Below, one piece after another: positions 41,658 to 63,561 of a stretch of 64,000 bases of DNA. Below the pieces are notes generated by a model that did not search any database, was not told the DNA's origin, and worked only from the letters and a program-made list of their open reading frames with translations. The stretch's first letter is position 1; each line of letters begins with the position of its first letter. This DNA comes from an uncultured virus (IMG/VR IMGVR_UViG_3300020205_001316) (taxonomy: Duplodnaviria; Heunggongvirae; Uroviricota; Caudoviricetes): the IMG/VR virus record IMGVR_UViG_3300020205_001316; one strand, given 5' to 3'. The translations under genes were made by a program, and so were the position numbers.

Positions 41658-44600
41658 TTATATTGAACCGCTTTGTATTTTAGTTATATATTCTTCTACT
41701 AAAATTTTAGAATATTCCGATGTATATCTTTCTGGTTTATAATTACCATTTGAATCATATAATGGACTATTTAATATATCTTCATCTCTTCTTTCTGCAA
41801 CAACCATCCAACTAATTACATCATTTGAATTAATATTTTCTGAAATTACACTTATAGAACCACTTATGACATTTCCTTTTACTCTATCGAAACCATTTTC
41901 ATTTTGTAAAAATAATTGTGAGTTTTTTGTAAGGGATTCAAATGTACCATCTGTCATTCTAGATGATGAATCTATTAAACAACTACCACTTCCATTTTCT
42001 AATTGGATATGACCTCTATAAATCAAATCTGCTCTAGGTGCTTCTATTGAAGTATGATATAACCATTTATTTTCTATAACTGGATGTTTAATTTTAAATT
42101 GTTTATTAACTGCACTAAATCCTGATGTGACATTTAATGACCCAATAATTTCAGTTTTTCCTTTAATTAAACAAAAATTACTAGCTACTCCAGTTGAACC
42201 TGATGGACTGGATACATTCATATAGTTTCTAAAACCCTGATAAACTTGTAATCCACCGGGTGACAAAGTCGAAAAACCATTAGCTACTCTACCAAATCTT
42301 ACTACAATATTACTTGCCGGCCTTCTTAAAGAAATAGAGTCAAACGCTGATTCACCATCATATTGACCATTCCATTGTTGGTATACTTCAACTCTATACC
42401 AATTGGCAGTACCTGCGGTATTTATACCCCCTCCACCAGGAGCTTCTATTGTTCCACCATATACATTACTAACATCTGTAAATGGAGTTCCATTATCTTT
42501 ACCTAATTGTGCTTCCGCTACCACAACTTGTTTATCACCAAACCCAGCCTCAGCATTTGTTTGATTTACTGCATCGGTAGATGTTGGAAATTTTCTTACT
42601 CTCAACACACAAATATAACTCGAATATGAATTTCCATCGTAAGTATTATCTTGAATAACATTTGCAATACTTGGAAACTCAGCCGGGTCAATTCCTATTT
42701 CTTCGTTTGCATATTGTAATCCAATAATACCAAAATATCCTGTTCCATAGTCACTAGAACCACCATTACCTAATTCCCATCCAGTATTATAAGCATTATA
42801 AGGAGTTGATGTATCTACAGTAGCAACTACTTGACTATTATTTGGATAATTAATAGTTGCAGTATCACTTGCAACAATCTGTGGAATTGTTTCATTTGCA
42901 TCTAATACAACTACATCCAAAGAATCTATTGGATTTGTTTTTGTAATTGATATTTTTTGTGCATTTGCACTTAATTTTAGAATATAATTCCCACTTACTT
43001 TTTGCAATCCGGTTGTTCCATCGATAGTCCATCCACCTATTGAACCGGTATTAAATTGTGCATTTCTTCCGAAAAATTCCAAAGAAGCAATTTTTTCCGC
43101 AACAATTTGGTTTGCTAATATTTTACCAGTAGTAATTGAATTATCATCTATATGAGTAGCATTAACCGTGTTTCGTGTTGCTAATGTACCTAAATCTGTT
43201 ACATATGTTGAATCTATTGTAGATTTGGTTGCTAACGAACCAAGTCCTTGTACCGAACCATTTGGGATTGTTACACCTGAAATTAGTGTTATTGATGTTG
43301 CTGTGATTGCTCCTCTTATTTCTAAACCACTACCATTCCATAATAATGAATTTCCTGCACTACCACTTAAATAAAATAAACCACTACTACTCATAAAGGT
43401 AGACCATCCCGCTCCACTTTTATAATATCCTAAATGTGAAGAATCCATATATAAACCACTACCCGCCGGTGTTGCGGTTCTATTCACTAAACCCGCCGCA
43501 TCGGTAAATATTTTAAGATTTGTGGTTGCTATGGATGCGGTTGTATTATTTGCTATTGCGTAGGTTAATGCACCTGAACCAGATGATGCCGCATTTGCTA
43601 TATCAGTTGCTGCTTGTCCACCTGTGATGTTTATTGAACCTTTTATTTCCAACGTTGAATTACCACTATCCCATGCTAAATATCCACCATTAGCGGCCGA
43701 ACTTGTTAAAAAAAAGTTACCATTATTAGCCATAAAAGTTTTCCAACCATTAACATTACCATTTCCATTATGATAACCTAAATATGATTGTCCTAAATAT
43801 AAACCAGCTACTCCGTTGGATGGTGCTTTGTTTACTAAACCAGTTGCATCGGTAAATATTCTACTATTTACATCGGTAAAGGTTGTTGCCGTTGATGCAC
43901 TAATTAGTGCTATACTTGCACTTGATAGTGCTACTGAGGTTGAAATAGAAGATGATACACTACTACTTAAAGATGCACTAACATTTGATATTGTACCACT
44001 TATAGATGAACTTATAAATAATGATGAACTTTGTAATGATGCCGAAAATGCTGATGATGTTACAAATGATTGTGATATACTTCCCGTAACCAATCCTATT
44101 GTTCCACTTACTGATTGTGATAATGCTAATATAGATGCGTTTGATGCCGATGTAGAACCACTAATTAAAATTAAGGTTCCACCAATGTTATTATTACCGC
44201 CCGTAAATAATGCGGATTGTGTAACTGCTACCGGAACATAATTATTGTTTACATCGTAAAACTCAAATTTAAAATTGTAAGTTTCGTTACCCAATACTGT
44301 TGGCATTGATGTAACAAATGAAATTTCAGATGGAGAAAATGCACTATCTTCTGATAATTTTAAACTAATATTTCCAACATGCCATTCACTTTGAGATTGT
44401 GATAAATATAAACTTGCTGTTGGTTCTGCTTTATCTAATATAAATGCAAATACTTGATCTGTTAAATTTTTAGTAGGAACGATACCATTTAGTGTACCTA
44501 TTAATTTTTCACCATTTTGAGAACCACTTATGTAAATCCCCATATTACTAGCAGTAGATGATGAATAAAATGCATCTATTCCTAATTCATAGGTATTTCC

Positions 44601-45455
44601 ATTATTTAAATTTAATGAACTTGTATATCTTAAATACCCACTATTTTTTAGACTTAAACCATTATCAATTTTACTGCTTGTCAATGCAGTATTTAGTGAA
44701 CCCGTATTCCATAATTTTTGTAAAGTTTCCGAAGTAAACAATCCGGCGTCACCTACTACACTACCACTAAGCGTTGTAGTAGTTAATAATTCTTTTGATT
44801 CAACTAATATATCTTGTATTAAATCATAATCCGAAATATCGCCTTCGGATGTTCTATAAACTTTTACTCTTTTTACATCTCCGGCAAATGTATCTAATTG
44901 AGAAACTTTAATATTTGCAAATGATTGTGTAACCAACGATGCTATTTTTGAACCAGTAGCATCAAATGCGTATATAGGTGATAATTGTTCTACAATTGAA
45001 ACAATAGGTCTTTTATAAAATCTTACTCTAGTTGTGTTCGATAATGCAGGATTTATATTAATTTGTTTTTCCCACTTAACACTATATAATCCATTCCATT
45101 CTTGAGGAACGTCTTTTAATTGACCTAATATGGTAATAGTTGCTGGTCCAAATGCAGTTAATGTAGGATATACATAAACTGCAGCTACTTTAGAAATACC
45201 TTCGTAATATTCAGGACTACCATTAGCATATTCTACATAACATACTTTGCCGGCTGCATCTCTAATTTGAATTTTAATTTCAGTATTAGCTAATAATTTA
45301 TTAGTACCCGCTATTAAGAATGCGTTTTTACCTCCCGAAAAAGTATCAGGAAGTTCACTTATGTTAAAATAATCTGAATTTAAACTAGTATCTGTAATGT
45401 AAGTTTGTACTAGTTCTAATTTCTCATCTGGTGCAACTTTGATATCAACTGCCAT
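41658..45455 (-). CDS. Tail fibre / receptor-binding protein with C-terminal chaperone-like domain
   Basis: 1265 aa, S/T/G-rich beta-structure with internal repeats and GSIGGW; C-terminal KQFKIKHP...LYHTSIEAP..YRG. Confidence 0.7.
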   Translation of the reverse strand: MAVDIKVAPDEKLELVQTYITDTSLNSDYFNISELPDTFSGGKNAFLIAGTNKLLANTEIKIQIRDAAGKVCYVEYANGSPEYYEGISKVAAVYVYPTLTAFGPATITILGQLKDVPQEWNGLYSVKWEKQININPALSNTTRVRFYKRPIVSIVEQLSPIYAFDATGSKIASLVTQSFANIKVSQLDTFAGDVKRVKVYRTSEGDISDYDLIQDILVESKELLTTTTLSGSVVGDAGLFTSETLQKLWNTGSLNTALTSSKIDNGLSLKNSGYLRYTSSLNLNNGNTYELGIDAFYSSSTASNMGIYISGSQNGEKLIGTLNGIVPTKNLTDQVFAFILDKAEPTASLYLSQSQSEWHVGNISLKLSEDSAFSPSEISFVTSMPTVLGNETYNFKFEFYDVNNNYVPVAVTQSALFTGGNNNIGGTLILISGSTSASNASILALSQSVSGTIGLVTGSISQSFVTSSAFSASLQSSSLFISSSISGTISNVSASLSSSVSSSISTSVALSSASIALISASTATTFTDVNSRIFTDATGLVNKAPSNGVAGLYLGQSYLGYHNGNGNVNGWKTFMANNGNFFLTSSAANGGYLAWDSGNSTLEIKGSINITGGQAATDIANAASSGSGALTYAIANNTTASIATTNLKIFTDAAGLVNRTATPAGSGLYMDSSHLGYYKSGAGWSTFMSSSGLFYLSGSAGNSLLWNGSGLEIRGAITATSITLISGVTIPNGSVQGLGSLATKSTIDSTYVTDLGTLATRNTVNATHIDDNSITTGKILANQIVAEKIASLEFFGRNAQFNTGSIGGWTIDGTTGLQKVSGNYILKLSANAQKISITKTNPIDSLDVVVLDANETIPQIVASDTATINYPNNSQVVATVDTSTPYNAYNTGWELGNGGSSDYGTGYFGIIGLQYANEEIGIDPAEFPSIANVIQDNTYDGNSYSSYICVLRVRKFPTSTDAVNQTNAEAGFGDKQVVVAEAQLGKDNGTPFTDVSNVYGGTIEAPGGGGINTAGTANWYRVEVYQQWNGQYDGESAFDSISLRRPASNIVVRFGRVANGFSTLSPGGLQVYQGFRNYMNVSSPSGSTGVASNFCLIKGKTEIIGSLNVTSGFSAVNKQFKIKHPVIENKWLYHTSIEAPRADLIYRGHIQLENGSGSCLIDSSSRMTDGTFESLTKNSQLFLQNENGFDRVKGNVISGSISVISENINSNDVISWMVVAERRDEDILNSPLYDSNGNYKPERYTSEYSKILVEEYITKIQSGSI

Positions 45456-45472
45456 TATAGAATATTCTTTTT

Positions 45473-45481
45473 TATAAATAT
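45473..45481 (-). promoter_or_regulatory. Putative late promoter element ATATTTATA
   Basis: Intergenic, 17 nt upstream of ATG 45455. Confidence 0.6.
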
Positions 45482-45482
45482 T

Positions 45483-46118
45483 CTATTTTTGAGTATTTCG
45501 TGCTAATTCAACTATTATGGTAATTCTTCTAAAATTATCATCTAAAACTTCGGTTACAGCGTGTACTGGGTTGTTTTGTGAAAAATCAAGAATTGCTACC
45601 TTTCCTAATTCAGGATTAACTTTTATATTATCATTAATAATTATTTCACCACCCATTCCATCAACATAATCATCATTCAAATAAATTAATATATTTGTAA
45701 GTCTATTGCCACCTGTACCATCTTGATGTCTATTTATATAACATAGTTTGTTATACATTGTACAATTTATAAAAAAATTAGTATCGTATGAATCTGATGG
45801 ATACACATCCTCTATTATAGAAGTAAATACTTCTCTTAAAAAGATACATTCTTCATTTGTTAGTTTAGATACAAAATTATTATCTTGATACCAAACTTGC
45901 CATTTTTTTAATGGTGCATATTCTTCTTTTAATTTTTCTAAATTTTCAAAAGAATCATATGATTTATCATTTTCACCACACCCAGTATGTCTTAAATTTG
46001 TAAACTCTATTTGTTTTATTTTATCTGCAATTGGTTTTAATTTTTCCTTTGTTTCATTATCTAAATCAAATGAAAGATAACCATCACTTATTAATTTGGT
46101 ATGTAATTCGGTATTCAT
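45483..46118 (-). CDS. 2OG-Fe(II) oxygenase (prolyl-hydroxylase-like)
   Basis: HQD, LIYLN, GMGGEI, HAV and R; paralog of 20901-21626 and of the N-terminus of 19265-20908. Confidence 0.82.
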   Translation of the reverse strand: MNTELHTKLISDGYLSFDLDNETKEKLKPIADKIKQIEFTNLRHTGCGENDKSYDSFENLEKLKEEYAPLKKWQVWYQDNNFVSKLTNEECIFLREVFTSIIEDVYPSDSYDTNFFINCTMYNKLCYINRHQDGTGGNRLTNILIYLNDDYVDGMGGEIIINDNIKVNPELGKVAILDFSQNNPVHAVTEVLDDNFRRITIIVELARNTQK

Positions 46119-46121
46119 ACT

Positions 46122-46130
46122 TATAAATAT
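46122..46130 (-). promoter_or_regulatory. Putative late promoter element ATATTTATA
   Basis: 3 nt upstream of ATG 46118. Confidence 0.6.
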
Positions 46131-49100: not shown

Positions 49101-49276
49101 GACATTTCTAATTTTGCGTGAGCTAAGTCTCCCGCTAAATAAATAAGGGAATCTTCTGTTCCCTTTTGCTTTATATCATTAAATAATCTATCAAATACCT
49201 CTCTATATTCCTGGTGTCTTTTTAGATTTCTAATGTGAATGTCCGCAATGTGATAAATTTTCTTTAATTTACTCAT
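46130..49276 (-). CDS. Single-chain Mre11/SbcD-Rad50/SbcC (T4 gp47-gp46-like) recombination nuclease
   Basis: Phosphoesterase motifs DIH, GD, GNHD, HG and GDIH; Walker A NASGKSS; coiled coil with CKFC Zn hook; signature CSGMEK; Walker B VIDEGFG; ISH. Confidence 0.92.
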   Translation of the reverse strand: MSKLKKIYHIADIHIRNLKRHQEYREVFDRLFNDIKQKGTEDSLIYLAGDLAHAKLEMSPELLNEINYFLKKCCELCPTILIAGNHDCNLNNAGRLDVLTPIVEALDLPNLTYLRNTQSYTYGGVRFDTFSIFDEKENWVFEPLTSDTKNIALFHGPVLDATTDVGYTISSRHFTSEMFDGYDLALLGDIHRRQTMISPKGCKVVYPGSLIQQNHGEALDKHGYAIWNMDDLSVEYVDVPNDYGYYTLHVENGVVPDVTDMPIKPRLRVFVSKTDASDIKRVTTEIKKKYKVDEFTITRTDTLARLRTGNKDGKLNVGNVNDPQYQAGLIKDYLGRNYMLDNETLGKIEDLNNKLNKRLNDDDLVKNIAWKPIRFEFDNMFSYGEDNIVNFENMKGLMGVFAPNASGKSSLFDALSFCIFDKSSRAFKAANILNNRKTSFSCKLEFDINDERFFIERTAKTTKKGDAVKCDVNFWKIEGGEIVNLNGDERRGTDKVIESYLGKYEDFVLTALSLQGNNSLFIDKSQSERKDLLAQFMGINVFDKLYDLASEDIKEVQVLLRNFKRTDFTSELATAENKLETLKDEYEEFEIEKEGYEDRQDDLNEEITNLSAQLVPIDGNLDIADLESKQSTLQSQITGSDATIQTKSLSIGKIMDVMAELTIAIDSKKQFNGIDIEVVYSNYQQQQKDLIEATKIYDIAKLHLSSAEETIKHLDNHEYDPNCKFCCDNTFVKDAMRVKELLPQLKEELKQATINATGIQQTLDSWEGIEEQYLQFEDYKAKLEKGKALHKTTYLELSGIITQKELYEAQLTAVELDIERYHANETTIQNNDSLEEQIDIKKQELAGVSKDLREIAARLLDMNGQIVQTQSYITSVTDKMTEAKDLEEKFQIYEYYLDAVKRDGVSYELIAKALPVIEGEVNNILQQIVEFGIVFDMSGKNVNARIVYEDQHWPLEMCSGMEKFVSGLAIRVALINVCNLPRPNFLVIDEGFGTLDSDNLQSIFMMFDYLKTQFDFINIISHLDAMRDIVDTLVEIKKVDGFSQIQYK

Positions 49277-51148: not shown

Positions 51149-52327
51149 TTAACTGTCAAATCGAACTAAAAAGTTTACAGGAAGGTCTGGCATTGATTTT
51201 ACAGGCTTTGCTAATTTAGCTACTGCTACCATATCCATATTCTCATCATATAAACCAATCGTTGTAATATAGGGTGCCAAATAAGAACCAGTTGTATCTA
51301 TCGATGCACTATATTCATATACATCAAATCCACTTGCACTAACACCATTATTTGCTGAAACATATGGAGTATTTAATGTAGTTCTTTGGTATTTATCACT
51401 ATTTCTCCATGCTTTAACTCCTTCAAATGTTGTATTTATTGAACCCGTTACAACATTTAATTCACTATATGTGGTTGGGTTTGTTGATACATTAAATTCA
51501 TCTTCACCTACTACTAATAAAAATTCATTTTCGTAAATAGTATTTGTAGATTTATAAGTTAAACTATATTGATTTAAAGCATTTTCTCTGGCCGCACCTA
51601 TTTGTGTTTGTTTTGTAAGAGTAATAATACCATGCGAATAAAATACATTACCTACATTTGGAATAACCAAGTTAGATAGTGACGTTGTTAATCCTGTAAA
51701 GGTTAATGTTTTATTTTCAATATCAACTACTAAATTTGTAAATGGTAAATCGCCCTCATCCTCAAAATAAATAATTCCAGTATTCATATCAATACTATAC
51801 GGACTTCCTATTGCCCATAAATTTAAAGTATATGAAACAAGTTCTACATCTAAAAATACAATCCTTTCTTCTGGTATATTAAATTCTAATAATTCATATG
51901 TATTTCTATCTGAGAATAAGTTACTAAATCCATCATCATTTATATTGTCATCCGTTTCCTCTAATACCAATTGTATTGAATTTTTCTTAATCCCTTCTCC
52001 AAATTTTGTTTGTGGTATTTTTAAAACCAATGCTCTATCGTTTATAACTCTTTGTTTAGCATCAATATATGGTGTATATTTTGGTTTAAAATCTCCAAAA
52101 GATACAAATGGATTTAATGCATTATCACCATTGTAATACATTGTTTTTAATTGATGATATAATGCTTTCTTTTCTAATATAGTAGAATCAGTATATCCCA
52201 AATTAGTTGAATCTTCTGCAATTGAAACAATATATCCACTACCACTACTATTTTCAGTTGCAGTAAACGTTTTATACACCTTAAAAGGTCTTAAATTAAT
52301 ATCGGATTTTGGGATGCGTTTTAACAT
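51149..52327 (-). CDS. Baseplate/tail structural protein
   Basis: C-terminal PYITTIGLYD...VAVAKLAKPVK...VRFD shared with 52437-53663. Confidence 0.6.
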   Translation of the reverse strand: MLKRIPKSDINLRPFKVYKTFTATENSSGSGYIVSIAEDSTNLGYTDSTILEKKALYHQLKTMYYNGDNALNPFVSFGDFKPKYTPYIDAKQRVINDRALVLKIPQTKFGEGIKKNSIQLVLEETDDNINDDGFSNLFSDRNTYELLEFNIPEERIVFLDVELVSYTLNLWAIGSPYSIDMNTGIIYFEDEGDLPFTNLVVDIENKTLTFTGLTTSLSNLVIPNVGNVFYSHGIITLTKQTQIGAARENALNQYSLTYKSTNTIYENEFLLVVGEDEFNVSTNPTTYSELNVVTGSINTTFEGVKAWRNSDKYQRTTLNTPYVSANNGVSASGFDVYEYSASIDTTGSYLAPYITTIGLYDENMDMVAVAKLAKPVKSMPDLPVNFLVRFDS

Positions 52328-52334
52328 AATCTAT

Positions 52335-52436: not shown

Positions 52437-53663
52437 TTAGAAATCTAACTTAACTTTCAATAATAATTCTTTACTGAAAGATTTGGCAATTGGTTGAGAT
52501 GTTTTAGCTACTGCAATCATTTCATTTGCATCGTTATACAAACCAACTGTTGTAATATATGTTAATGGATCTACTTGGAATGTTGGTTGTTTCATTGAAC
52601 CGGTTACATCTACATATGTAGGATTATTTGAGAAGTTAAATTCTCTATTATTAACTCTTACAAAATAATGTGCCGTTGATACATTTTCAATTCTACGAGC
52701 TTGAAAATCACCACCACCACTAATTGCATTAAATAAATTTTTGTGTTTAAATTCATACGAAGAAGATACACTTGTACCTGCCAATGCCCCACCTACACTT
52801 GCACTTAAGGCTAATGGATTGAATACCATTATACCATAATCAGGATAGAATTTACCAAAACCATATCCACCAGTTGGTGTAGAATAATTTGTAATTGAAT
52901 TTCCTAAATTTGTTCCTAAATTTAATGAACCTTCAACAATGTTGTATTCGTTTGTACCCGCATTTGTAGTATTGAATTTTTCACCACTATCATCAATAAA
53001 AGTTTTTGAACCCCAACTACCACTTAATGTGATTGACCAGTTACCTGGATCAACTCTTTCTCTATAATTTGCTCTACTAATATTAATAGCATAAATGTCA
53101 TCTGAAGTCATACCATCTAATGTACTTCCACTATAAAAACGGAATTTAGGTTCATCAGTATCAGTTAATAATGCTCTATATTGAAAATATGTAGCTTTTG
53201 TTGGTAAAGTTGCATCATCATCATTTCCTAATGTCATTGCACCCGCACCACTAATATGTCCATAAGCTACTGCAAATTCAGGAGTTGTAGAACCAGTAAT
53301 ATAAACATTATAATAATATTCATCTGTTTTTGAACCACTATTTCCTGCAACTGAAGAATTTGAACCCGTAACTAATGTAGTAGATCCTGTACCAATACTA
53401 CCATTACCATTACTCCATAATCCTGTTGTTACAATTTCATTTTTAGCAGGAACAATATCAGTTGTATTAAATGTTTTATATACGGAATTAGTAGTTACTC
53501 CAGTTTCCATTATTAACTTCTCACCTGTTGTAAGGTAGTTGTTGATAATAGCTGCTAATTGAGTTGTATCTAATGTTCCATTAGCATTTTGCTTTTGTTG
53601 ATTAAGATACGTTGCTAAATCGTTTGTTAATTGTGTTCCCGTATTTGTACCTAAAGTTGCCAT
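52437..53663 (-). CDS. Baseplate/tail structural protein (paralog of 51149-52327)
   Basis: FNFSNNPT, YITTVGLYND..IAVAKTSQPI and VKLDF; S/T/G-rich. Confidence 0.6.
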   Translation of the reverse strand: MATLGTNTGTQLTNDLATYLNQQKQNANGTLDTTQLAAIINNYLTTGEKLIMETGVTTNSVYKTFNTTDIVPAKNEIVTTGLWSNGNGSIGTGSTTLVTGSNSSVAGNSGSKTDEYYYNVYITGSTTPEFAVAYGHISGAGAMTLGNDDDATLPTKATYFQYRALLTDTDEPKFRFYSGSTLDGMTSDDIYAINISRANYRERVDPGNWSITLSGSWGSKTFIDDSGEKFNTTNAGTNEYNIVEGSLNLGTNLGNSITNYSTPTGGYGFGKFYPDYGIMVFNPLALSASVGGALAGTSVSSSYEFKHKNLFNAISGGGDFQARRIENVSTAHYFVRVNNREFNFSNNPTYVDVTGSMKQPTFQVDPLTYITTVGLYNDANEMIAVAKTSQPIAKSFSKELLLKVKLDF

Positions 53664-54323: not shown

Positions 54324-54332
54324 TATAAATAT
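54324..54332 (-). promoter_or_regulatory. Putative late promoter element ATATTTATA
   Basis: Intergenic, 19 nt upstream of ATG 54304. Confidence 0.6.
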
Positions 54333-54359: not shown

Positions 54360-57300
54360 TTAATCTACTTCTAATATTGGTTCGTTATTACTTCTACCTT
54401 GTGATGTTACTCTTAATGTGGTTGGGTTAGTTGTAAATGTTTCAACCGGTGATTTTCCATCTATGGTTGTATAAGAACTTGTTACACCATTTTCAATATA
54501 AGATGTTTGTTTACATCCTCTATAAAACAAATTTTCAATACCACTATGTTTATCACCTTTATAAATATAATGTGATGGTAAATATCCACTAGCAGTTGTA
54601 ATTGCTACTATTTTATCTTTACCATTTAATTTTAAGCCTACACTTGCACTAAAGTCTTGTACAATTAATTCTTGTGAATACGATGATGTTACTATATTTT
54701 GTTCACTACCACTCACACCATTAACTGTTAATTGTGTAAGAATAGTATTTTGTTTTGTTACTAAAAATGCTCTTATACCTTTAGATTTTACTGAACCATT
54801 TTCTTCATAAAAATATTTACCATATCCATTATTAAAATATGTTCCATATCCATAATCACTATATCTATCAAATCCAATAATAGAGTTTCCATAATTTAAA
54901 TCTAATTCTGTTAATATGGTAGGGTCTTTTAATCTAAAATCAATTTCACCTTCATATGTTATATACGAAGCATCCGCCACATTTTCTAAATCAGTATTAA
55001 TTGTAGTAGTAATTGAATCTACTTCTGCATTAAAATTATATGTATTTGATGCAATAAGTGTTCCATCTAAGGTTTCGTTTACACCACTAATGTTTTCAAT
55101 AGAAGCAGTTAAATTTAAATTAGCTTCTTTGTAATCAAACGTAGAAGATAAGTCAGTAATTTGTGTTTCGGTTATTACACCATCTAAACTTTCAGCAGTT
55201 GCTTCTGGTCTATTTATTTTAATTCGGTTTCGTTCTAATAAATGTGGTGCTATTAAAAGACCTGTTGTTGTTACTGCTCTTACTGGTAACATTTCTTTTA
55301 AATTAACAAATAATGATTTATCGTAAAATTTAATTAAACGAATAAATTCATATAAGTTTCTTTCACCCACTCTTTCAAAATAATAATTTCTTAAATTATC
55401 TAATTCAGGATAATTTATAGTATTGTATTCATATTGAGGGTCACCGATAAAATCATCAAATGATTCACCACCTAACGATTTTGCAATATCTAAATCTAAA
55501 TCTTTATTCGGAGAGAAAAATAAACCAACTCTATTAGAATCTTTTGTAGAACTTTCAAATGCTTTTTTAGTTGCTCTTTTTATTGGAGATAAATTATTTA
55601 CTAATTCTTGTGATTCTAATCTTACTTTATTTGTATAATATCTGCTTGCTCCACTATTAGGAATTGTTAATGCTACTTCTCTTTCTAATACATCATAATT
55701 AAATGGATATGCACTTGCGGTTGCAAACCCACTTGCACTAACCGCTGCTACATAAGTCAAAGAAGGTGCAATATTATTAATAGTTCGATTAGATGCTAAA
55801 TTTTGAGGTCTTTCGAAATCTAATCTTAATAATAAATCTTGCGTTGAACTATGTAAATGATTACCATTAATAGCTTCCGGCATAATGACGTGATTATTAA
55901 ATACACTTTCACTTAAATTAGTTTCCCATAATCTAATTTCTTCTAAATGCCCTTTAAAACCTGTAAATGATAATGTAGAGGTGGCTTCGTAATTACTACC
56001 TGTAATATTTTTTGTCCATTCGCCACTATGTATTATTCTATCTTTATCATTTGTTTTAGCGTATACATTAACGGAACTACTACTTTTGTTAAGTAATATA
56101 CTATGATAGTTTCCATCATAAAATGGATACGAAGAATCTACCGAACTACCATTTACTCTAATATAACCATATTTACTACCAATAATAGAGGATGCTGTAT
56201 CTTTTACTATTTCTAATTTAAAATCGCCACTACCCGTTAGTAACATATAATTTTCAAACTCATTTGGTTTAAATTTAAACTCAATTGATTGTGGTTTAGG
56301 TGTTCCGGTAAATGGAATTTCTAAACTCGCACTTATATTATCAAATACTAAATTATGTGTTAAACTTTCATATATAAACTTAGGTGCATCTTCTACTATA
56401 TCAATATTAGGTCCACCAAATTCCATTATAGAAAGATTTGATGATGGTATACCATAACAAGTTAATAAAGCTTTAATACCCCTATGTGAACCTTTATGTT
56501 TTAATAAATAAGGTAAGTTATTAGCAATTCTTCTCCAAACTTGATGTGTAGCTTTTTCCGGTGTGATTAATTCTATATTCTCACCTAAATGCTCATCTGA
56601 TGTAAATGAACCAGTAACACCACTATTATTATAACCAAAGGTATAATCCCAAAGTTGTTTATTTGAATTTAAATTTTTAGGATTCCAACCAAATGATTGT
56701 AAATATTGATATAAGAATTTATCTTCAATGCCATCTGTATTAGTTTCAGCTATTTTCTTTTGGTCACTCATTCCTTTAATATACGACCAAATAATATCAA
56801 AATAATTACCAATCATGTCTAAAAATAAAAGATAATCTATATTTCCATTATCTTCTACAATATGAAGTGGTATGTTATTTTTTAATGCATTATTATTATT
56901 TTTATCAAATTCCGCTGCTGTATTTAAATAACTGGTATATAATGTTGCAGTATTAGAATCATATTCTTCCGGTTGTCCATATGAATTAAAAGAAGTAATA
57001 AATGAACCAGTAAATATACTTTGTGTTAAATAAGTTTCCCAACTATCTAATCCAGTTAATAAATTTGTTTTTTTAGTTTCTATATTAACCGAATCTAATT
57101 GAGCGGTAATTGATGTTGAATCACTTAATATATCAATGTTTGTTTGATACAATTCTGCTAATTCTTTTTTGTATCTAAAGTTTGCTAATCTTTCAACCGC
57201 ACTACTATATTTTACAAAATTAGAAAAATTACTATAATCAATATTAATACCATTTACATCAATAAAATTTTCTACTAAATATTTATCTACTATTTGTTGT

Positions 57301-59234
57301 GATGTCTGTGAACCACTTAAAATCAAATTATCATATGATTCAAATCCAGTAGATTGTCCGCCTACAAAATCAATATCAATATTAAAATTAGCGGCCCTTA
57401 ATGGAATACAAATATCATCGGCTACACCACTTAATACTACTGATTGTAAAATAGGTAATGCACTTAATTCGGAAATCCAAAGTGTGTCATTTTTATTTAT
57501 ATTAGTAGGTAATGGTTCGTATAATTTTATTACAACACTTTTATTTATTTGACCGTCTGGAATTTGGTTACCTAATTCATCTGTTTTAAATTTAGTAAAC
57601 GTAGTATTATCAACATCCCAATTTGAAATTACAATTTGTTTATCATCTTTATCAAATGATGCTAAATGATTTAAATATTTTGGTTTGCTTAAATTAAGTT
57701 TTAATTGAGATGAAATTGCATTAAACAATTCATCTTTTAAATTTTGAGTAGAAACATAAAATCCAGGATCATCAAATGAAATACTTATTCTTTCTATTTC
57801 ACCTTTAATGGAGCCGTTGTAAGGTACTAATAATAAATCAAGTATACCATTTTTTACAAATGTCTTTAAATTATTATATGTACTATTGTAACTTGTTTTT
57901 GCTGCACCATTTGCTAATAGATAATTATCATCTTCTTTGGTATGATATACTAATATTTTTGTTGCTAAATTAGATTCATATTCAATTTTAAATGCAACAT
58001 CTCCAAAACTATAAATTGGTATTATTACTACTGTAGGATAATCTATTTTATCTATAATAGGAACATCAAATGTTTTTGATATTGTTACAATAGTTGGTTG
58101 TGTAATACCATCACCAAACACATTTGAATATGGTGTTAATAATATTTTAAATTGACCCTCATTATTTAAAAAATGAGTTTTTAAATCTAATGTAATTTTT
58201 TTAGTATCAACTGCTTTAGTAGAAATATCATATACAAATTCTTTATATGGGGTGGTAATTCTAACGGAATCTGAATTTTCTAATGTAAATTCAATATTAA
58301 TATCAGCTGATGCTGTTTTTGAATCAAATATTGATTCTAATATTTTTGCATTAAAATTTTTATATGAATCGGAAATTGTTAATTTAGGATATAGGATATC
58401 ATTAGGTTCTACTTCTATTAAAACTATAATGTTATTATTAAAAATATTTGCTGGTATTATAACTTCTATACCATTAGTTCCTATAATATTAAAATCATTT
58501 ATATCAAATGTACTATTACTATTAAATTTACTAGCATATTGCCATCTAATATTTTTAGGTTTAAATTTAGCTAAACCAGATACTAATATTTTAACATCAT
58601 CAATTGTATATCCTATAATGTCAATATCATTTTTAACACCCAAATTAGTTAAATCATATTGAACACCATTTGATGTTACTCGTATTTTTAATTCATTTAT
58701 TAAATCTGCATTTAAAAAATTACTTACAAATGATATGTTTTGAATTTTAGTAACAACCGGATCACGTTTAGGTTTAGCTGCTTCTATATCAAATCCCAAC
58801 TCAATTGTCAATGGTAGTATGCAATCTTTTGTTGATTGTATATCACCATTTTCATTATATGCGTTTAAAGTTATACCATTTATTGTTTTTTTAAATTCAA
58901 AATAATTTTTTGAAATATACCCATCATTAATAGTGGGTTTAATTAATAAACTATCATTTATTGTATTTGAATCAATTGAAACTGAATTTGTTTCTTGATA
59001 TGTTTGACCTTGTACATCGAAGGTCATTTGATTTTTAAAATTGGTAGAATTTTTAAAAGTAATTCGTATATCATTACCTCTTACCTTTGGTGAATACACT
59101 GGTGGTGTTGAACCACCAATAGTGCCACTATTACCATATACTCCGGTATTTTCATTTAAAATATCTAATGAAGTAAACGGAATGTAGTTACCACCCATCA
59201 TATTTTTTGAATACAAATTTTCTAAATATCCCAT
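54360..59234 (-). CDS. Large baseplate wedge-type protein with LamG-like domain
   Basis: 1624 aa; FLDMIGNYFD and NLPYLLKHKGSHRGIKALL (baseplate wedge/P2 gpI-like core); FKGHLEEIRLW (LamG-like). Confidence 0.6.
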   Translation of the reverse strand: MGYLENLYSKNMMGGNYIPFTSLDILNENTGVYGNSGTIGGSTPPVYSPKVRGNDIRITFKNSTNFKNQMTFDVQGQTYQETNSVSIDSNTINDSLLIKPTINDGYISKNYFEFKKTINGITLNAYNENGDIQSTKDCILPLTIELGFDIEAAKPKRDPVVTKIQNISFVSNFLNADLINELKIRVTSNGVQYDLTNLGVKNDIDIIGYTIDDVKILVSGLAKFKPKNIRWQYASKFNSNSTFDINDFNIIGTNGIEVIIPANIFNNNIIVLIEVEPNDILYPKLTISDSYKNFNAKILESIFDSKTASADINIEFTLENSDSVRITTPYKEFVYDISTKAVDTKKITLDLKTHFLNNEGQFKILLTPYSNVFGDGITQPTIVTISKTFDVPIIDKIDYPTVVIIPIYSFGDVAFKIEYESNLATKILVYHTKEDDNYLLANGAAKTSYNSTYNNLKTFVKNGILDLLLVPYNGSIKGEIERISISFDDPGFYVSTQNLKDELFNAISSQLKLNLSKPKYLNHLASFDKDDKQIVISNWDVDNTTFTKFKTDELGNQIPDGQINKSVVIKLYEPLPTNINKNDTLWISELSALPILQSVVLSGVADDICIPLRAANFNIDIDFVGGQSTGFESYDNLILSGSQTSQQIVDKYLVENFIDVNGINIDYSNFSNFVKYSSAVERLANFRYKKELAELYQTNIDILSDSTSITAQLDSVNIETKKTNLLTGLDSWETYLTQSIFTGSFITSFNSYGQPEEYDSNTATLYTSYLNTAAEFDKNNNNALKNNIPLHIVEDNGNIDYLLFLDMIGNYFDIIWSYIKGMSDQKKIAETNTDGIEDKFLYQYLQSFGWNPKNLNSNKQLWDYTFGYNNSGVTGSFTSDEHLGENIELITPEKATHQVWRRIANNLPYLLKHKGSHRGIKALLTCYGIPSSNLSIMEFGGPNIDIVEDAPKFIYESLTHNLVFDNISASLEIPFTGTPKPQSIEFKFKPNEFENYMLLTGSGDFKLEIVKDTASSIIGSKYGYIRVNGSSVDSSYPFYDGNYHSILLNKSSSSVNVYAKTNDKDRIIHSGEWTKNITGSNYEATSTLSFTGFKGHLEEIRLWETNLSESVFNNHVIMPEAINGNHLHSSTQDLLLRLDFERPQNLASNRTINNIAPSLTYVAAVSASGFATASAYPFNYDVLEREVALTIPNSGASRYYTNKVRLESQELVNNLSPIKRATKKAFESSTKDSNRVGLFFSPNKDLDLDIAKSLGGESFDDFIGDPQYEYNTINYPELDNLRNYYFERVGERNLYEFIRLIKFYDKSLFVNLKEMLPVRAVTTTGLLIAPHLLERNRIKINRPEATAESLDGVITETQITDLSSTFDYKEANLNLTASIENISGVNETLDGTLIASNTYNFNAEVDSITTTINTDLENVADASYITYEGEIDFRLKDPTILTELDLNYGNSIIGFDRYSDYGYGTYFNNGYGKYFYEENGSVKSKGIRAFLVTKQNTILTQLTVNGVSGSEQNIVTSSYSQELIVQDFSASVGLKLNGKDKIVAITTASGYLPSHYIYKGDKHSGIENLFYRGCKQTSYIENGVTSSYTTIDGKSPVETFTTNPTTLRVTSQGRSNNEPILEVD

Positions 59235-59238: not shown

Positions 59239-59247
59239 TATAAATAT
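59239..59247 (-). promoter_or_regulatory. Putative late promoter element ATATTTATA
   Basis: 4 nt upstream of ATG 59234. Confidence 0.6.
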
Positions 59248-60490: not shown

Positions 60491-61726
60491 TTAGTTATAT
60501 GAATGAACTTTACCTTGGAATGTTTTACTTTCTACTTTACCACCTTTATCTATATCTGTTACTGTAATTGTAATTGTTTCTTCGTAATCAGTATATTTTT
60601 TTTGTGTTGCACCAAATATAGCCGCACCTATTGCAACTGCCGCTAATGCTGCCCAACCAACCGGACCTAATGCACCCAATATTGCTGCACCCGTACCAAG
60701 TGCAGCAGTAGTACCCGCCACCACTAATGCGGCACCGGCAGCTGCAGATGCCACTGCACCTGCAGCTATATAAGCCCCCGTAGCTACTGCAATTGCACTC
60801 GCTGCATATGCTGCATTTTTTAATCCCTTATTTTTAGGTGAAGGAACTGCATATATATTCGGTTTATCAAATTTAAATCTATCTTGTGAATTTGCTTTTA
60901 ATGTAAATGTTGATGGAACTAAAAAGAATGTTTGTTTAATATCTACTTTAATATCTTTAGGTCCAGCGATTACATCAACATATCCACTGCTCCATGCCTT
61001 AGCGTATCCCGCCGGTCCTTTTACTTTTTGACCACCATCTGATAAATCCATATCGTAAGCCAATCCTTTAGCTTCTGTGTTTTTAGCGGGGTCACCTTTT
61101 TCCCAAAGTATAGTAGCTAACTCACCAGTTGAAACACCCCCTGCTGCTATTGCCTGTGCTTTTGCACTTAATTGTTGTTGTGCTACTTGTAAACTTGCAT
61201 TTGCCTGAGCTAATAAATTGTTTAATGTATCTATTTGTTTAATTAATGCATTCTTTTGTGCCGTTAAACCACTATTCTCAGCTTCCAATGTTGTTCTTTC
61301 GGTTGCTTCATTAATTGCTTTAGTTAATGATGTTGTTAAACTAGTTCTTAATTCTAACGTTGTTTGTTGTATAGATACTATTGTATTTTCTAATTTAGCA
61401 TTTGTAACTTTTAAATTATCATTATCAATATATAAAGAACTACTATCCGATTTTAATGATTCAACTTGAGATAATAGGCCATCAACTTGTATCTGTAATG
61501 TATTTATTTCTCTTTCTAATTCTAAACTATGCGATACTTCTGCATCATAAACCGGTTTTGGTATTAAATCTAAATTAGTTTCCGGCAATGCTTTAATTAA
61601 CTCTATAACTTTAGTATCTACCGATTTTATTAACTCGGCTGTATTATATTGGTCAACATATAATTTTGTATTTATATTGTTGTCAACATTATCCGATATG
61701 TTAATATATGTTTTATCTATTGCCAT
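60491..61726 (-). CDS. Coiled-coil protein with long Ala/Gly hydrophobic segment
   Basis: Heptad region at about aa 65-190; a ~70-aa uncharged stretch ending LGPVGWAALAAVAIGAAIFGA. Confidence 0.55.
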   Translation of the reverse strand: MAIDKTYINISDNVDNNINTKLYVDQYNTAELIKSVDTKVIELIKALPETNLDLIPKPVYDAEVSHSLELEREINTLQIQVDGLLSQVESLKSDSSSLYIDNDNLKVTNAKLENTIVSIQQTTLELRTSLTTSLTKAINEATERTTLEAENSGLTAQKNALIKQIDTLNNLLAQANASLQVAQQQLSAKAQAIAAGGVSTGELATILWEKGDPAKNTEAKGLAYDMDLSDGGQKVKGPAGYAKAWSSGYVDVIAGPKDIKVDIKQTFFLVPSTFTLKANSQDRFKFDKPNIYAVPSPKNKGLKNAAYAASAIAVATGAYIAAGAVASAAAGAALVVAGTTAALGTGAAILGALGPVGWAALAAVAIGAAIFGATQKKYTDYEETITITVTDIDKGGKVESKTFQGKVHSYN

Positions 61727-63561
61727 TATTTGTAAATATCAAATGTACCGATTTCAAAAATTTCTTCATTATCGTCATCGATTGATTTTACTAATAATGT
61801 GTAGTTTCTACCAACTGACCAATTTGAAAAATTTAATTTTATTAAGTTATTAAATTCACCTTGTATAACTCTACTTGCATCTGAATATCCTATTATTGTT
61901 TCTTTTGTTAAAGTATCAATTATACTATAATATGCAGTTGATGGTAAGTAGTATTTTACTTGATATGCAAACGTAGTGTTAAATTGTTTAACTGGATATA
62001 ATTCTCTTGCATCAATTTTAAGTGTTACTTTTTGTCCTTGACGATATGATGTTTTTAAATTTGGTGAATAACATCTATACGAAACATCATAACTACTACT
62101 ATTAATAAAATCAGTAATTGTTGTTAAATCTCCACCCACCACATCATCTTCTAAATAAGTAATAACTAATTTAGGTTGATATATTGTATTAGTTTCTTTT
62201 GAGAACATTTTAATACTGCCATAATCAACTGAACCGGTTTCTTTATCAGTTGGAAATTTAAGTATAATACCATTATTTGCTATACTACCACTATTCCATT
62301 TTTTAACAAATGAAGTAACATCTAAATTAATATCTTCTATGGTGTATTGGAACGATTGTGATGCTACCGAAGATGTAAACCATGTACCACCAAGCCCAGT
62401 ATCAGAACCGGTTGTGAAGGCGTTAAAACTAGCTCCTTGTCCGTCTACATATGTATTGTTCCAAATAGTAGATGTATCATCTCCGTTTTTATAGTACCAA
62501 GTTGCACCATTTGTAGTAATTTTATCAAAACGAGTACCAGTACCATTTTCCCAACTTTGAGAAATTGGATATGCTTCAATATTAAAACTAGCAGCAATTT
62601 CATCTGCCTTAGTTATTTTTAATTGTAATGATGCACTAAACGGGAAATCATATCCACCATTTTGAATTGTACTTAAAATTGATTGTGATGTTGCATTATA
62701 TGATGCACTAATGGTACTAGAACTTATATCTGCTAGTTGCCAAATTAAATACTTTATATTTTTACTTTCATTTAATGTAAAAATTGATGCGGATAATATT
62801 GAAGCCGATGCTTGTAATTGAGGTATTTGTTTTCCCGCAAATATAGATGCCGATGTAGGTATATTATTTACTGCTATGTTAAATAAAACATTTAATTCAT
62901 CAATTTCATTTCTTAATGAAGATGATTGTAACAATAATGATGCCGATTGTTCTAATTGTGTAACATATGATTGTGAAATTGCATTAAAAGATGCACTTAA
63001 AGTATTGTCGGTTATTGAACTTGTTAATGCTGAATTATTTAATGTAAAATACGAAGATGACATTAAACTATATGATTCTGATATACCTGTTATTGTTGAA
63101 TTTATAATTGCAATTGATGCACTATTGGGAATTATTTGATTATATATGGATTGAGAAGCTTCTAAATAATCTGCAGAAATGGAAGTTGCGGTAATTGTTG
63201 TATAAGTAAATAAGGATGCCGATACTACACTAGCACTTGCATTTGTAATAAATAATGATTGTGATGTTGTACTATATGATGCAGATAAATAATTAGAAGC
63301 AGAAACACTAGATGACCAAGAACTAGAAATTAAATTATTACTATATATCGAAGATGATATCGTTTGTAATTTTGTATTTTGTAATTCAAATATACTTTTA
63401 GATATTTCCGTAGTATCAAACTGAATTAATACTCTACTAATATCCGGGGTTGAACCATAATCTACTCTTGAAATTTCTAGTATTTCATCTATACCAGTGT
63501 TTTGGTAAGGTTGTTGTAAGTATATAGTTGCATCTTGTGATGCTGTATAAAATAATATCAT
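61726..63561 (-). CDS. Tail/baseplate structural protein with Ser-rich insert
   Basis: DATIY...NTGIDEILEI...SRVLIQFD; W.NGTG; NNGIILK...FSKETNTIYQPKL; central SxS-dense region. Confidence 0.55.
   Translation of the reverse strand: MILFYTASQDATIYLQQPYQNTGIDEILEISRVDYGSTPDISRVLIQFDTTEISKSIFELQNTKLQTISSSIYSNNLISSSWSSSVSASNYLSASYSTTSQSLFITNASASVVSASLFTYTTITATSISADYLEASQSIYNQIIPNSASIAIINSTITGISESYSLMSSSYFTLNNSALTSSITDNTLSASFNAISQSYVTQLEQSASLLLQSSSLRNEIDELNVLFNIAVNNIPTSASIFAGKQIPQLQASASILSASIFTLNESKNIKYLIWQLADISSSTISASYNATSQSILSTIQNGGYDFPFSASLQLKITKADEIAASFNIEAYPISQSWENGTGTRFDKITTNGATWYYKNGDDTSTIWNNTYVDGQGASFNAFTTGSDTGLGGTWFTSSVASQSFQYTIEDINLDVTSFVKKWNSGSIANNGIILKFPTDKETGSVDYGSIKMFSKETNTIYQPKLVITYLEDDVVGGDLTTITDFINSSSYDVSYRCYSPNLKTSYRQGQKVTLKIDARELYPVKQFNTTFAYQVKYYLPSTAYYSIIDTLTKETIIGYSDASRVIQGEFNNLIKLNFSNWSVGRNYTLLVKSIDDDNEEIFEIGTFDIYK

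What the first reader, a model, noticed from the sequence alone, without database searches (positions are those of the whole stretch)
41658..63561. Dense [S/T]-[G/A/S/Q]-S motif in tail/baseplate proteins: candidate sequon of a phage-encoded virion glycosylation system
Seen in sequence: the tail fibre (41658-45455) and tail/baseplate ORFs 51149-52327, 52437-53663, 54360-59234 and 61726-63561 are studded with SGS/TGS/SAS/TAS/SSS/SQS/TQS, usually after a hydrophobic residue. Examples are ISGSTSASNAS, VTGSISQSFVTSSAFSASLQSSSLFISSSISGT, LSASFNAISQSY, FTGSF and VSASG; the fibre even ends in QSGSI*. Head proteins, enzymes and replication proteins show no such density. The motif recurs in unrelated folds, so it looks like a convergent linear tag rather than a domain repeat. 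Inference: it is the acceptor sequon for Ser/Thr O-glycosylation (or another modification) by the ~26 kb transferase cluster transcribed directly downstream of the fibre, giving a glycan-coated tail.
Basis: partly seen in the sequence, partly recalled or inferred. Interest (0 to 1): 0.85.

Follow-up and report, generated by a model that had tools for sequence, protein, structure and literature searches.

The report
Serine motif on phage tail proteins
The tail proteins of this uncultured T4-like phage and its relatives are studded with a short serine motif that is far too frequent and too specific to be chance, and it may mark sugar-attachment sites, but related phages keep the motif without this window's sugar-enzyme cluster, so that link is unproven.

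Summary
[ST][GASQ]S is 3-4 times over-represented in five tail proteins (z 3.9 to 8.5) and at chance level in 44 non-tail proteins. The motif is directional and Ser-specific: hydrophobic-[ST]-[GAQS]-S-hydrophobic is about 14 times enriched, while [ST][GAQ]T is not enriched. About half of the sites lie in length-variable fibre modules with a hydrophobic period near 3.6, as in alpha-helical coiled coils. The rest are scattered through globular tail proteins.

The downstream 26 kb holds only soluble sugar enzymes and glycosyltransferases: a GT-B enzyme 9 nt after the fibre, a weak GT2-like protein, and three GT7-lectin fusions. This fibre-cluster synteny is kept in 25 of 26 related contigs.

The cultured relatives immuto and Mel-JY01 carry the same motif grammar but lack this GT-B and GT7. 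They share a different glycosyltransferase set with the window's clade. T4 and RM378 show no enrichment, and LR756508 shows about 2 times.

I read the motif as a clade-wide serine-faced structural element (0.45). A true O-glycosylation sequon read by a conserved enzyme is the main rival (0.3).

This scan has noted serine-rich fibre plus glycosyltransferase pairings before, on other DNA. No chemistry exists for any of them.

The parts
41658..45455 (-). Tail fibre, 1265 aa, 13% Ser, 38 motif sites. Conserved N-terminal part (aa 1-420), variable shaft, and a C-terminal ~150 aa like cyanophage fibre ends.
   Evidence: No Pfam or PHROG hit. No PDB relative by sequence.
43866..44183 (-). Periodic Ser-rich shaft block of the fibre (aa 425-530): 36% Ser, no charged residue, 8 pentapeptide sites. 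Its length varies among homologues.
   Evidence: Hydrophobic period 3.6-3.67. Top hydrophobic lags 15 and 11 here; lags 11 and 22 in homologues.
61726..63561 (-). 611-aa baseplate-region protein next to a gp6-like wedge gene, 16% Ser, 31 motif sites.
   Evidence: 77 related loci.
62641..63390 (-). 250-aa Ser-rich insert (aa 58-307) in a loop of the 611-aa protein. Present in 3 long forms and absent from about 60 short forms of 357-370 aa.
   Evidence: AF2 pLDDT 20-36, mostly helix, not reliable.
54360..59234 (-). 1624-aa baseplate or tail protein, 19 motif sites, scattered.
   Evidence: Homologues in G002, immuto and LR756508.
52437..53663 (-). 408-aa tail protein, 9 sites. Its C-terminal segment resembles that of 51149-52327.
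   Evidence: Homologues in immuto, Mel-JY01, LR756508 and RM378.
51149..52327 (-). 392-aa tail protein, 5 sites.
40635..41648 (-). GT-B fold (GT4-like) glycosyltransferase, starting 9 nt after the fibre stop codon.
   Evidence: AF2 pLDDT 87. Foldseek top hits are GT4 enzymes with TM about 0.65. No Pfam or NCBIfam hit. In 65 of 72 loci a long Ser-rich ORF lies upstream.
38520..39359 (-). Weak GT2-like protein.
   Evidence: PF13704, E 3.8e-5, below the family cut-off.
33888..38484 (-). Three tandem GT7 (beta-1,4-GalT-like) enzymes, each fused to a Laminin_G_3 lectin-type domain (33888-35333, 35330-36793, 37003-38484).
   Evidence: E 1e-33 to beta4GalT1 and beta4GalT7, with an FHDIDM motif aligned to the DXD motif. 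The family is found only in metagenomes. None in 50,697 phage records.
15786..33888 (-). Soluble sugar-nucleotide tailoring genes. They include three SDR epimerase/dehydratases (one fused to a 2OG oxygenase), an RmlC-like epimerase, a DegT-type aminotransferase fragment, a split TPP enzyme, two twitch-domain radical SAM proteins, 2OG oxygenases and unknowns.
   Evidence: No multi-pass membrane protein.
45473..45481 (-). ATATTTATA, a candidate late-promoter box upstream of the fibre gene. The next intergenic copy downstream is at 15648, so fibre and cluster are probably one transcription unit.
   Evidence: No convincing terminator in 27000-46500.

Best explanation
The motif is a real, protein-level feature of the virion tail proteins of a whole clade of distant T4-like phages: the window, the complete relative G002, Flavobacterium phage immuto and Microcystis phage Mel-JY01. 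Its grammar is hydrophobic-[S/T]-[G/A/Q/S]-Ser-hydrophobic.

In the fibres it is the i to i+4 step of 7-, 11-, 15- and 18-residue repeats with a hydrophobic period of about 3.6. I infer that these tracts are uncharged, serine-coated alpha-helical coiled-coil shafts whose length is easily changed. In globular tail proteins the motif sits singly, mostly at the ends of secondary-structure elements.

On this reading the motif is first of all a structural way of presenting serines on the tail surface. It is not a sequon defined by this window's 26-kb cluster, because the motif survives in relatives that lack that cluster's transferases.

The cluster itself is a soluble glycan-building system, probably late and co-transcribed with the fibre. 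It most likely decorates the neighbouring Ser-rich fibre; I put the odds of that step at about 0.45, by inference. Shown here: the statistics, the grammar, the periodicity, the folds and the synteny. Inferred: the helical shaft, the late expression and any glycosylation.
For: - Enrichment and tail specificity.
- Grammar and Ser-versus-Thr asymmetry in four phages.
- Mixed Ser codons, so selection acts on the protein.
- Periodic, length-variable modules.
- Hydrophobic autocorrelation peaks at lags 4, 7, 11, 15, 18 and 22, as for a period of about 3.63, not at even lags as in beta strands.
- A weak SF-assemblin coiled-coil hit in the 1592-aa, 26% Ser protein of G002, and Peptidase_S74 ends on two G002 Ser-rich fibres.
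- The motif is retained in immuto (97 against 26.4) and Mel-JY01 (57 against 12.1), which lack the GT-B and GT7 families.
- Motif serines are hardly more conserved than other serines.
Against: - Orthologous tail proteins of T4 (34 observed, 36.7 expected) and RM378 (about 1x) lack the enrichment and those of LR756508 show only about 2x, so those folds do not require it.
- It occurs in unrelated folds, including the sheath (G002 z 4.1, Mel-JY01 z 4.1).
- A purely structural amphipathic pattern would be expected to accept Thr at the last position, yet [ST][GAQ]T is not enriched.
- Exclusion of charged residues from what would be the most exposed helix position is unusual for coiled coils.
- AF2 gave no confident model of the Ser-rich insert, and no trimer model could be made.
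Confidence: 0.45

Rival explanations
1. The motif is a true O-glycosylation acceptor motif, with the last Ser as acceptor. It is read by a glycosyltransferase conserved across the motif-bearing clade and encoded outside this window, for example the GT4-like enzyme at G002 174485-175762 (immuto gp180). The window's variable 26-kb cluster then builds or extends a clade-specific glycan, giving a sugar-coated tail.
For: - Ser-specific, directional grammar restricted to exposed virion tail proteins, including the sheath.
- Orthologues in T4 and RM378 are not enriched, and those of LR756508 only about 2x.
- A glycosyltransferase set is shared in synteny by G002, immuto and Mel-JY01. Its 'B' member occurs in G002, G003, immuto and Mel-JY01. 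It is absent from LR756508, RM378 gives only a marginal hit (E 8.7e-4), and no other of 50,697 phage records holds it.
- immuto DNA shows canonical dA, dC and dT plus fdPreQ1, so its transferases do not visibly glycosylate DNA (PMC10516641, passages read).
- G002 and G003 have no ThyA-type pyrimidine hydroxymethylase, while the T4 control is detected.
- The cluster has no lipid-carrier or membrane enzymes.
- A GT-B gene follows Ser-rich fibres in 65 of 72 loci, and follows both fibre clusters of G002.
Against: - No glycan has been observed.
- The sample is four phages with the 'B' enzyme (motif statistics made for three of them) against three without, and it is confounded by relatedness.
- The shared transferase set lies beside a nuclease gene in a non-structural region.
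- Its 'A' member is also present in LR756508 and RM378, which show little or no enrichment.
- Motif serines are barely more conserved than others.
- The major capsid protein and tail tube are not enriched.
Confidence: 0.3
2. One reading: the motif is the sequon of the 26-kb cluster directly downstream of the fibre, whose own transferases start the glycosylation.
For: - The GT-B gene starts 9 nt after the fibre stop codon.
- Fibre-cluster synteny holds in 25 of 26 loci.
- The promoter-like box stands before the fibre and no intergenic copy lies within the cluster (the one copy at 22146 is inside an ORF).
- The GT7-lectin architecture recalls, from memory, the mucin-type ppGalNAc-transferases.
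Against: - immuto and Mel-JY01 keep the same grammar without GT-B or GT7 homologues.
- LR756508 has the GT-B but its fibre homologue has 1 site in 725 aa.
- Fibre homologues with a non-Ser-rich module still carry the cluster.
Confidence: 0.1
3. The motif serves another serine-directed function. One possibility is a different modification by the radical SAM or 2OG oxygenase enzymes. Another is a serine surface that binds host polysaccharide. On this reading the cluster acts on the host surface or on DNA.
For: - Two twitch-domain radical SAM proteins score far above the family cut-off, and five P4H-type 2OG oxygenases lie in or beside the cluster.
- The Atlas lead from the GT-B to the T4 DNA alpha-glucosyltransferase family (score 0.97).
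Against: - T4 AGT ranks only 36-39 among Foldseek hits, behind generic GT4 enzymes.
- No ThyA-type hydroxymethylase in G002 or G003.
- No Wzx, Wzy or WaaL-like membrane proteins.
- The cluster lies within the virion gene block.
Confidence: 0.1
4. The pattern is a by-product of serine-rich composition or of chance.
For: The tail proteins are Ser-rich, 8-16%.
Against: - Shuffles that keep global and local composition give z up to 8.5.
- The pentapeptide reaches z 16.8 in the window and z 38 in G002.
- Ser-rich T4 and RM378 proteins show no excess.
Confidence: 0.01

Closest known systems
Mycobacteriophage virion O-glycosylation (Freeman et al. 2023). The paper is not held; it is known here only through a passage of PMC12619734 and recall.
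   Same: Phage-encoded glycosyltransferases are proposed to decorate the phage's own virion proteins.
   Different: There, glycans were observed, at the C-termini of the capsid and tail-tube subunits. Here nothing was observed, the candidate sites are internal and spread over fibres, baseplate proteins and sheath, and the major capsid protein and tail tube are not enriched. The enzymes are of other families.
Serine-rich repeat glycoproteins of Gram-positive cocci with GtfA/GtfB (recalled; PMC2952246 seen as a search listing and abstract only)
   Same: Long tracts of Ser-x-Ser type lie beside a GT4-like GT-B transferase gene.
   Different: No GtfB partner and no accessory Sec genes are seen in the window. 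The phage tracts have a regular hydrophobic period of about 3.6, where the bacterial tracts are hydrophilic dipeptide repeats. The motif also occurs in globular proteins.
Animal beta-1,4-galactosyltransferases (CAZy GT7; beta4GalT1 and beta4GalT7) and, by architecture only, ppGalNAc-transferases (catalytic domain plus lectin domain; recalled)
   Same: E 1e-33 to beta4GalT1 and beta4GalT7, with the DXD region aligned. A catalytic domain is followed by a lectin-type domain.
   Different: Only about 155 residues of the catalytic domain align. The lectin part is Laminin_G_3, not ricin-B. The donor and the acceptor are unknown.
Coiled-coil phage fibres such as T4 fibritin, and hendecad coiled coils in general (recalled)
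   Same: Hydrophobic periodicities of 7, 11, 15 and 18 residues, and shafts of variable length.
   Different: T4 fibritin shows no motif excess (1 observed, 2.7 expected). The tracts here are nearly free of charge and up to 36% Ser, which is unusual for coiled coils.
Virus-encoded glycosylation machinery of giant viruses (chlorovirus capsid, mimivirus fibrils; recalled)
   Same: A large viral cluster of soluble sugar-nucleotide enzymes plus transferases without a lipid-carrier pathway.
   Different: Those are eukaryotic viruses with shown glycans. This is a bacteriophage with no chemistry.

Membership tests
Phage virion O-glycosylation system (mycobacteriophage type) | Phage-encoded glycosyltransferases | tested here: met
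   GT-B fold, three GT7 domains above the Pfam cut-off, and a weak GT2-like protein.
Phage virion O-glycosylation system (mycobacteriophage type) | Glycan shown on virion proteins | not testable with these tools
   This needs mass spectrometry or glycan staining of virions.
Phage virion O-glycosylation system (mycobacteriophage type) | Sites at the C-terminal tails of the capsid and tail-tube subunits | tested here: not met
   G002 major capsid protein z 1.3; tail tube 0 sites. The motif lies inside fibres, baseplate proteins and sheath.
Serine-rich repeat glycoprotein system (GtfA/GtfB type) | Long Ser-x repeat tract in the substrate | tested here: inconclusive
   Ser-rich tracts of 106 and 250 aa, and up to 1592 aa with 26% Ser in G002. 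They carry a regular hydrophobic period.
Serine-rich repeat glycoprotein system (GtfA/GtfB type) | Adjacent GT4 enzyme with a GtfB partner and accessory Sec genes | tested here: not met
   A GT-B fold enzyme is adjacent. The Pfam scans of the window's ORFs returned no Sec or GtfB-like hit; no search was aimed at them.
CAZy GT7 / Pfam Glyco_transf_7N + 7C | Both Pfam domains above the gathering score | tested here: met
   Three proteins, 7N 71-84 bits against 27, 7C 57-68 bits against 23.
CAZy GT7 / Pfam Glyco_transf_7N + 7C | DXD metal-binding motif and the GWG...D region | tested here: met
   FHDIDM aligns with FSDVDL, and GWGYHDLD with GWGGEDDD, in the phmmer alignment to 6fwu. Which residues are catalytic is recalled, not tested.
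GT-B (GT4-like) glycosyltransferases | Two-Rossmann GT-B fold | tested here: met
   Model pLDDT 87; at least 500 Foldseek hits with E <= 0.001; top hits are GT4 enzymes with TM 0.6-0.7.
GT-B (GT4-like) glycosyltransferases | Membership by sequence profile | tested here: not met
   No Pfam or NCBIfam hit up to E 1 and 0.1 respectively.
Alpha-helical coiled-coil fibre shaft | Hydrophobic periodicity of 3.5-3.67 residues | tested here: met
   Spectral peak at 3.6-3.67 in the fibre block. Autocorrelation lags 4, 7, 11, 15, 18 and 22. The 611-aa insert is less regular, with a peak near 4.0.
Alpha-helical coiled-coil fibre shaft | Confident helical model and oligomer | tested here: inconclusive
   AF2 monomer gives helices at pLDDT 20-36. 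No trimer model was made.

The most novel reading that the evidence does not exclude
A clade of distant T4-like phages of aquatic bacteria uses a Ser-specific linear acceptor motif, hydrophobic-[ST]-[GAQS]-S-hydrophobic, spread over fibres, baseplate and sheath. A conserved phage glycosyltransferase starts O-glycosylation at this motif, and large variable gene clusters such as this window's 26 kb extend it with rare sugars. The result would be a glycan-coated tail whose sugar type differs between lineages, a phage counterpart of the sequon-based glycan shields of animal viruses.
Probability: 0.3. Interest if true: 0.85.

Novelty: new variant of a known kind. Interest (0 to 1): 0.6.

Why it matters
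If the serines carry sugars, this would be the first sequence-defined glycosylation motif on a phage tail. It would also give a function to the large sugar-gene clusters of aquatic phages, with consequences for host recognition, stability and escape from defence or grazing. If they do not, the motif is still an unreported structural signature of uncharged, serine-coated fibre shafts in one phage clade, and it is useful for recognising fibre genes. Two motif-bearing relatives, immuto and Mel-JY01, are in culture, so the question can be settled directly by virion mass spectrometry.

Tried and rejected
- Whole-genome look-up: no assembly is held for the window. The complete relative G002 (237 kb) was used instead.
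- AF2 of the 611-aa protein: the Ser-rich insert was not modelled with confidence. Mapping of the 9 non-insert sites found 2 in strands and 7 in coil or at element ends, at pLDDT 30-73, which is too weak to call exposure.
Nothing was folded.
- PDB sequence searches of the fibre and of the 611-aa protein: nothing. PHROGs and Pfam: nothing for the tail proteins.
- TRF: no DNA tandem repeats under the Ser-rich blocks.
- The T4 late promoter TATAAATA in the sense orientation is not enriched. Its complement-strand form led to the ATATTTATA box.
- Search for a motif-bearing relative without any glycosyltransferase: none found. immuto and Mel-JY01 both carry GT1 and GT2 genes.
- The ORF upstream of the LR756508 GT-B homologue (z 3.5) is not a Ser-rich fibre.
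- Conservation test of motif serines: only marginal.
- Literature: four searches found no paper describing this motif or tail-fibre glycosylation by phage enzymes. The search for Mel-JY01 found no paper.
- Rejected: composition artefact and a DNA-level motif.


Full report
**What the window is.** All 54 long ORFs lie on the minus strand of a 29-30% GC sequence. A T4-type portal, large terminase and prohead protease and a gp6-like wedge fragment mark a distant T4-like myophage. The nearest named relatives by portal are Microcystis phage Mel-JY01 (47%), Flavobacterium phage immuto (49%), the uncultured 484-kb record LR756508 (46%) and Rhodothermus phage RM378 (33%). No assembly is held for the window. 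A complete 237-kb relative in IMG/VR, G002, is syntenic over the whole window.

**Checking the observation.** Counts of [ST][GASQ]S are 38, 31, 19, 9 and 5 in the five named proteins, and 0 or 1 in each of the 40 ORFs from 3 to 41648. Whole-protein shuffles give z 7.8, 8.5, 5.8, 4.9 and 3.9. Shuffles within 60-aa windows, which keep local composition, give 6.2, 6.7, 5.9, 5.0 and 3.8. Forty-four non-tail proteins together show 14 sites against 16.0 expected. The quoted peptides are all there. An unbiased scan of every tripeptide ranks SAS, TGS, SGS and SQS first in the tail set. None of these stands out in the controls. Serine codons in the motif are as mixed as elsewhere, so the signal is at the protein level. 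The range given also contains a 2OG oxygenase, an SbcCD fusion, a primase and endonuclease I, which are not tail proteins and are not enriched.

- S[GAQ]S is 5.4x enriched and T[GAQ]S 3.7x. S[GAQ]T is 0.6x and T[GAQ]T 1.7x (not significant).
- S[NT]S and S[DEKR]S are depleted, and S-hydrophobic-S is at expectation.
- The pentapeptide hydrophobic-S-[GAQS]-S-hydrophobic is 14.4x enriched in the window (23 against 1.6, z 16.8). It is 14.6x enriched in 13 Ser-rich or tail proteins of G002 (113 against 7.7, z 38).
- The Ser-not-Thr rule at the last position holds outside the repeat tracts and in G002, immuto and Mel-JY01.

**Where the sites lie.** Two tracts hold about half of the sites of their proteins.
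- Fibre aa 425-530 has 36% Ser, no charged residue, 14 tripeptide sites and 8 pentapeptide sites.
- Aa 58-307 of the 611-aa protein holds 22 of its 31 sites.
- The second tract is an insert into a loop. Three long forms exist (window, L045, L083), against about 60 homologues of 357-370 aa that have a short loop there.
- The fibre tract varies in length among 30 distinct homologues (26 of them 150 aa or longer in this region). In 15 of those 26 it is Ser-rich (shown for 14). In 11 an unrelated module replaces it.
- In homologues the repeat is plainly 11 residues, for example L-S-G-S-V-S-G-S-I-T-T, with two motif copies per unit.
- Hydrophobic autocorrelation peaks at lags 4, 7, 11, 15, 18 and 22 in the window, in three homologues and in a 1592-aa, 26% Ser protein of G002. 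This is the series expected for about 3.63 residues per turn, not for beta strands. I therefore read the tracts as coiled-coil-like helical shafts. That is an inference. AF2 drew helices there but at pLDDT 20-36, and a trimer could not be modelled.
- Outside the two tracts the motif is still 66 against 18.3 (z 11.9) in 3944 aa of globular tail proteins. In G002 it is enriched in the sheath (10 against 3.0) and in a 416-aa protein next to the capsid gene. It is not enriched in the major capsid protein, tube, portal or terminase.
- In the weak model of the 611-aa protein, 7 of 9 non-insert sites are in coil or at element ends.

**The gene cluster.** The fibre stop codon is followed after 9 nt by a 337-aa protein without any family hit. 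Its confident model (pLDDT 87) has a GT-B, GT4-like fold. T4 DNA glucosyltransferases appear only at ranks 36-48. Next come:
- a methyltransferase;
- a weak GT2-like protein;
- three GT7 (beta4GalT-like, E 1e-33) enzymes each fused to a Laminin_G_3 domain;
- two twitch-domain radical SAM proteins;
- three SDR enzymes, an RmlC-like epimerase, an aminotransferase fragment, a split TPP enzyme and several 2OG oxygenases.

No protein of the cluster has more than one borderline hydrophobic segment, so there is no flippase, polymerase or ligase of a lipid-linked pathway. The box ATATTTATA occurs 13 times, always on the coding strand. Eleven copies lie in intergenic gaps 3-25 nt before a start codon. 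One stands before the fibre and the next intergenic one before the 1310-aa gene at 15644. No convincing terminator lies between them. The cluster is therefore probably transcribed with the fibre.

In 25 of 26 related contigs with enough sequence, the fibre is followed by the same cluster head. In 65 of 72 loci of the GT-B family, a Ser-rich ORF (>=10% Ser) of 500 aa or more ends within 3 kb upstream. The background in G002 is 6 of 27 long ORFs. G002 has a second GT-B copy directly after a second fibre cluster that includes two Peptidase_S74 fibres. These loci are related, so they are not independent counts.

**Does the motif follow the cluster?** It does not.
- Eight immuto tail proteins give 97 [ST][GAQ]S sites against 26.4. 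Its 1053-aa tail spike gives 61 against 21.6 (z 9.3). Six Mel-JY01 tail proteins give 57 against 12.1.
- Neither phage has a homologue of the GT-B or of GT7 (positive controls).
- LR756508 has the GT-B, yet its fibre homologue has 1 site in 725 aa. Its five orthologues together have 15 against 7.5.
- T4 (19 proteins, 34 against 36.7) and RM378 show nothing.

No glycosyltransferase-free control exists, however. immuto, Mel-JY01 and G002 share, in synteny after a PD-(D/E)XK nuclease gene, a set of transferases at 36-63% identity. One of them (G002 174485-175762) is found only in immuto and Mel-JY01 among 50,697 phage records. It is present in G003, absent from LR756508, and gives only a marginal hit (E 8.7e-4) in RM378. 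Another is present in all of them. With four phages carrying that enzyme (motif statistics made for three) against three without, and with relatedness as a confounder, this is a lead and not a test.

**Other targets for the sugars.** For immuto, published LC-MS of digested DNA found dA, dC and dT as canonical nucleosides and G replaced by fdPreQ1 (PMC10516641, passages read). So its transferases do not visibly glycosylate DNA. G002 and G003 have no ThyA-family enzyme that could make hydroxymethyl pyrimidines, while the T4 control is detected three times. They also lack a true QueC. That glycosylated phage DNA requires hydroxymethyl pyrimidines is my recollection, not a result. The absence of membrane enzymes argues against building a host surface polymer.

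**Verdict.** The best-supported reading is that the motif is a clade-wide, serine-presenting element of tail proteins. It is periodic and probably helical in the fibre shafts and single in globular parts, and it is not defined by this window's cluster (0.45).

The main rival is that the last Ser is an O-glycosylation acceptor read by a conserved transferase and extended by variable clusters. It explains the Ser-not-Thr rule, the restriction to exposed tail proteins and the lack of the motif in T4 and RM378 orthologues better than a structural account does. It has no chemical support, and the conservation signal is weak (0.56 against 0.48, p 0.04).

**What is in print.** The only phage virion glycosylation I could trace is that of mycobacteriophages, at the C-termini of capsid and tail-tube subunits (passage in PMC12619734; the original paper is not held). 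Four literature searches found no description of this motif. Earlier notes of this scan describe Ser-rich fibres next to transferase clusters in other phage genomes. They are unchecked AI notes and were not used as evidence.

Noticed in passing
window 2008-2016, 6315-6323, 8797-8805, 11697-11705, 15648-15656, 45473-45481, 46122-46130, 51137-51145, 52335-52343, 54324-54332, 59239-59247 (minus strand): ATATTTATA occurs 13 times, all on the coding strand. Eleven copies lie in short intergenic gaps 3-25 nt upstream of start codons. It is a candidate late-promoter box of this phage clade, unusually close to the start codons.
   Followed up: partly
window 46130-49276 (-): The SbcD-like nuclease and the SbcC-like ATPase are fused into one 1048-aa ORF. 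In LR756508 the two parts are separate ORFs with a 305-aa ORF between them.
   Followed up: no
window 29315-30841 and 32497-33888 (-): Two paralogous 'twitch domain-containing radical SAM' proteins (NF033640, 313 and 325 bits against a cut-off of 170) lie inside the sugar cluster. Their substrate is unknown.
   Followed up: no
window 17894-18439 and 25720-26352 (-): A TPP-dependent enzyme is split into an E1/TPP-binding part and a transketolase pyrimidine-binding part, encoded 7 kb apart. This suggests a branched-chain or two-carbon-extended sugar (the chemistry is recalled).
   Followed up: no
window 19265-20908 (-): A P4H-type 2OG-Fe(II) oxygenase domain is fused to an NAD-dependent sugar epimerase/dehydratase. 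Four further 2OG oxygenases lie at 20901-21626, 26965-27660 and 45483-46118, and one inside this fusion.
   Followed up: no
window 11712-15644 (-): A 1310-aa protein has a weak N-terminal cytidylyltransferase-like domain. Related large ORFs follow the fibre region in LR756508 and G002 (BLAST hits). Large ORFs at the corresponding position in Mel-JY01 (annotated FkbM methyltransferase, with a GT1 hit) and immuto (annotated NadR-like) were not aligned to it.
   Followed up: partly
window 60491-61726 (-): A 411-aa, 14.6% Ala protein has coiled-coil-type Pfam hits and three hydrophobic segments at aa 308-370. It may be a tape-measure-like or membrane-active tail protein.
   Followed up: no
G002 100860-116825 (L131): A second fibre cluster after the capsid genes holds proteins of 696, 218, 1592 (25.9% Ser, 128 sites), 882 and 1183 aa. 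Two have Peptidase_S74 chaperone ends. They are followed by a second GT-B copy and a Laminin_G_3 protein.
   Followed up: partly
window 52328-52436: A GC-rich hairpin followed by a T-run lies between genes 52437-53663 and 51149-52327. It looks like an intrinsic terminator just ahead of an ATATTTATA box.
   Followed up: no
window 3400-4251 (-): A likely endolysin with a PG_binding_1 domain and a glycoside hydrolase 19 (chitinase class I) domain sits among the head genes.
   Followed up: no
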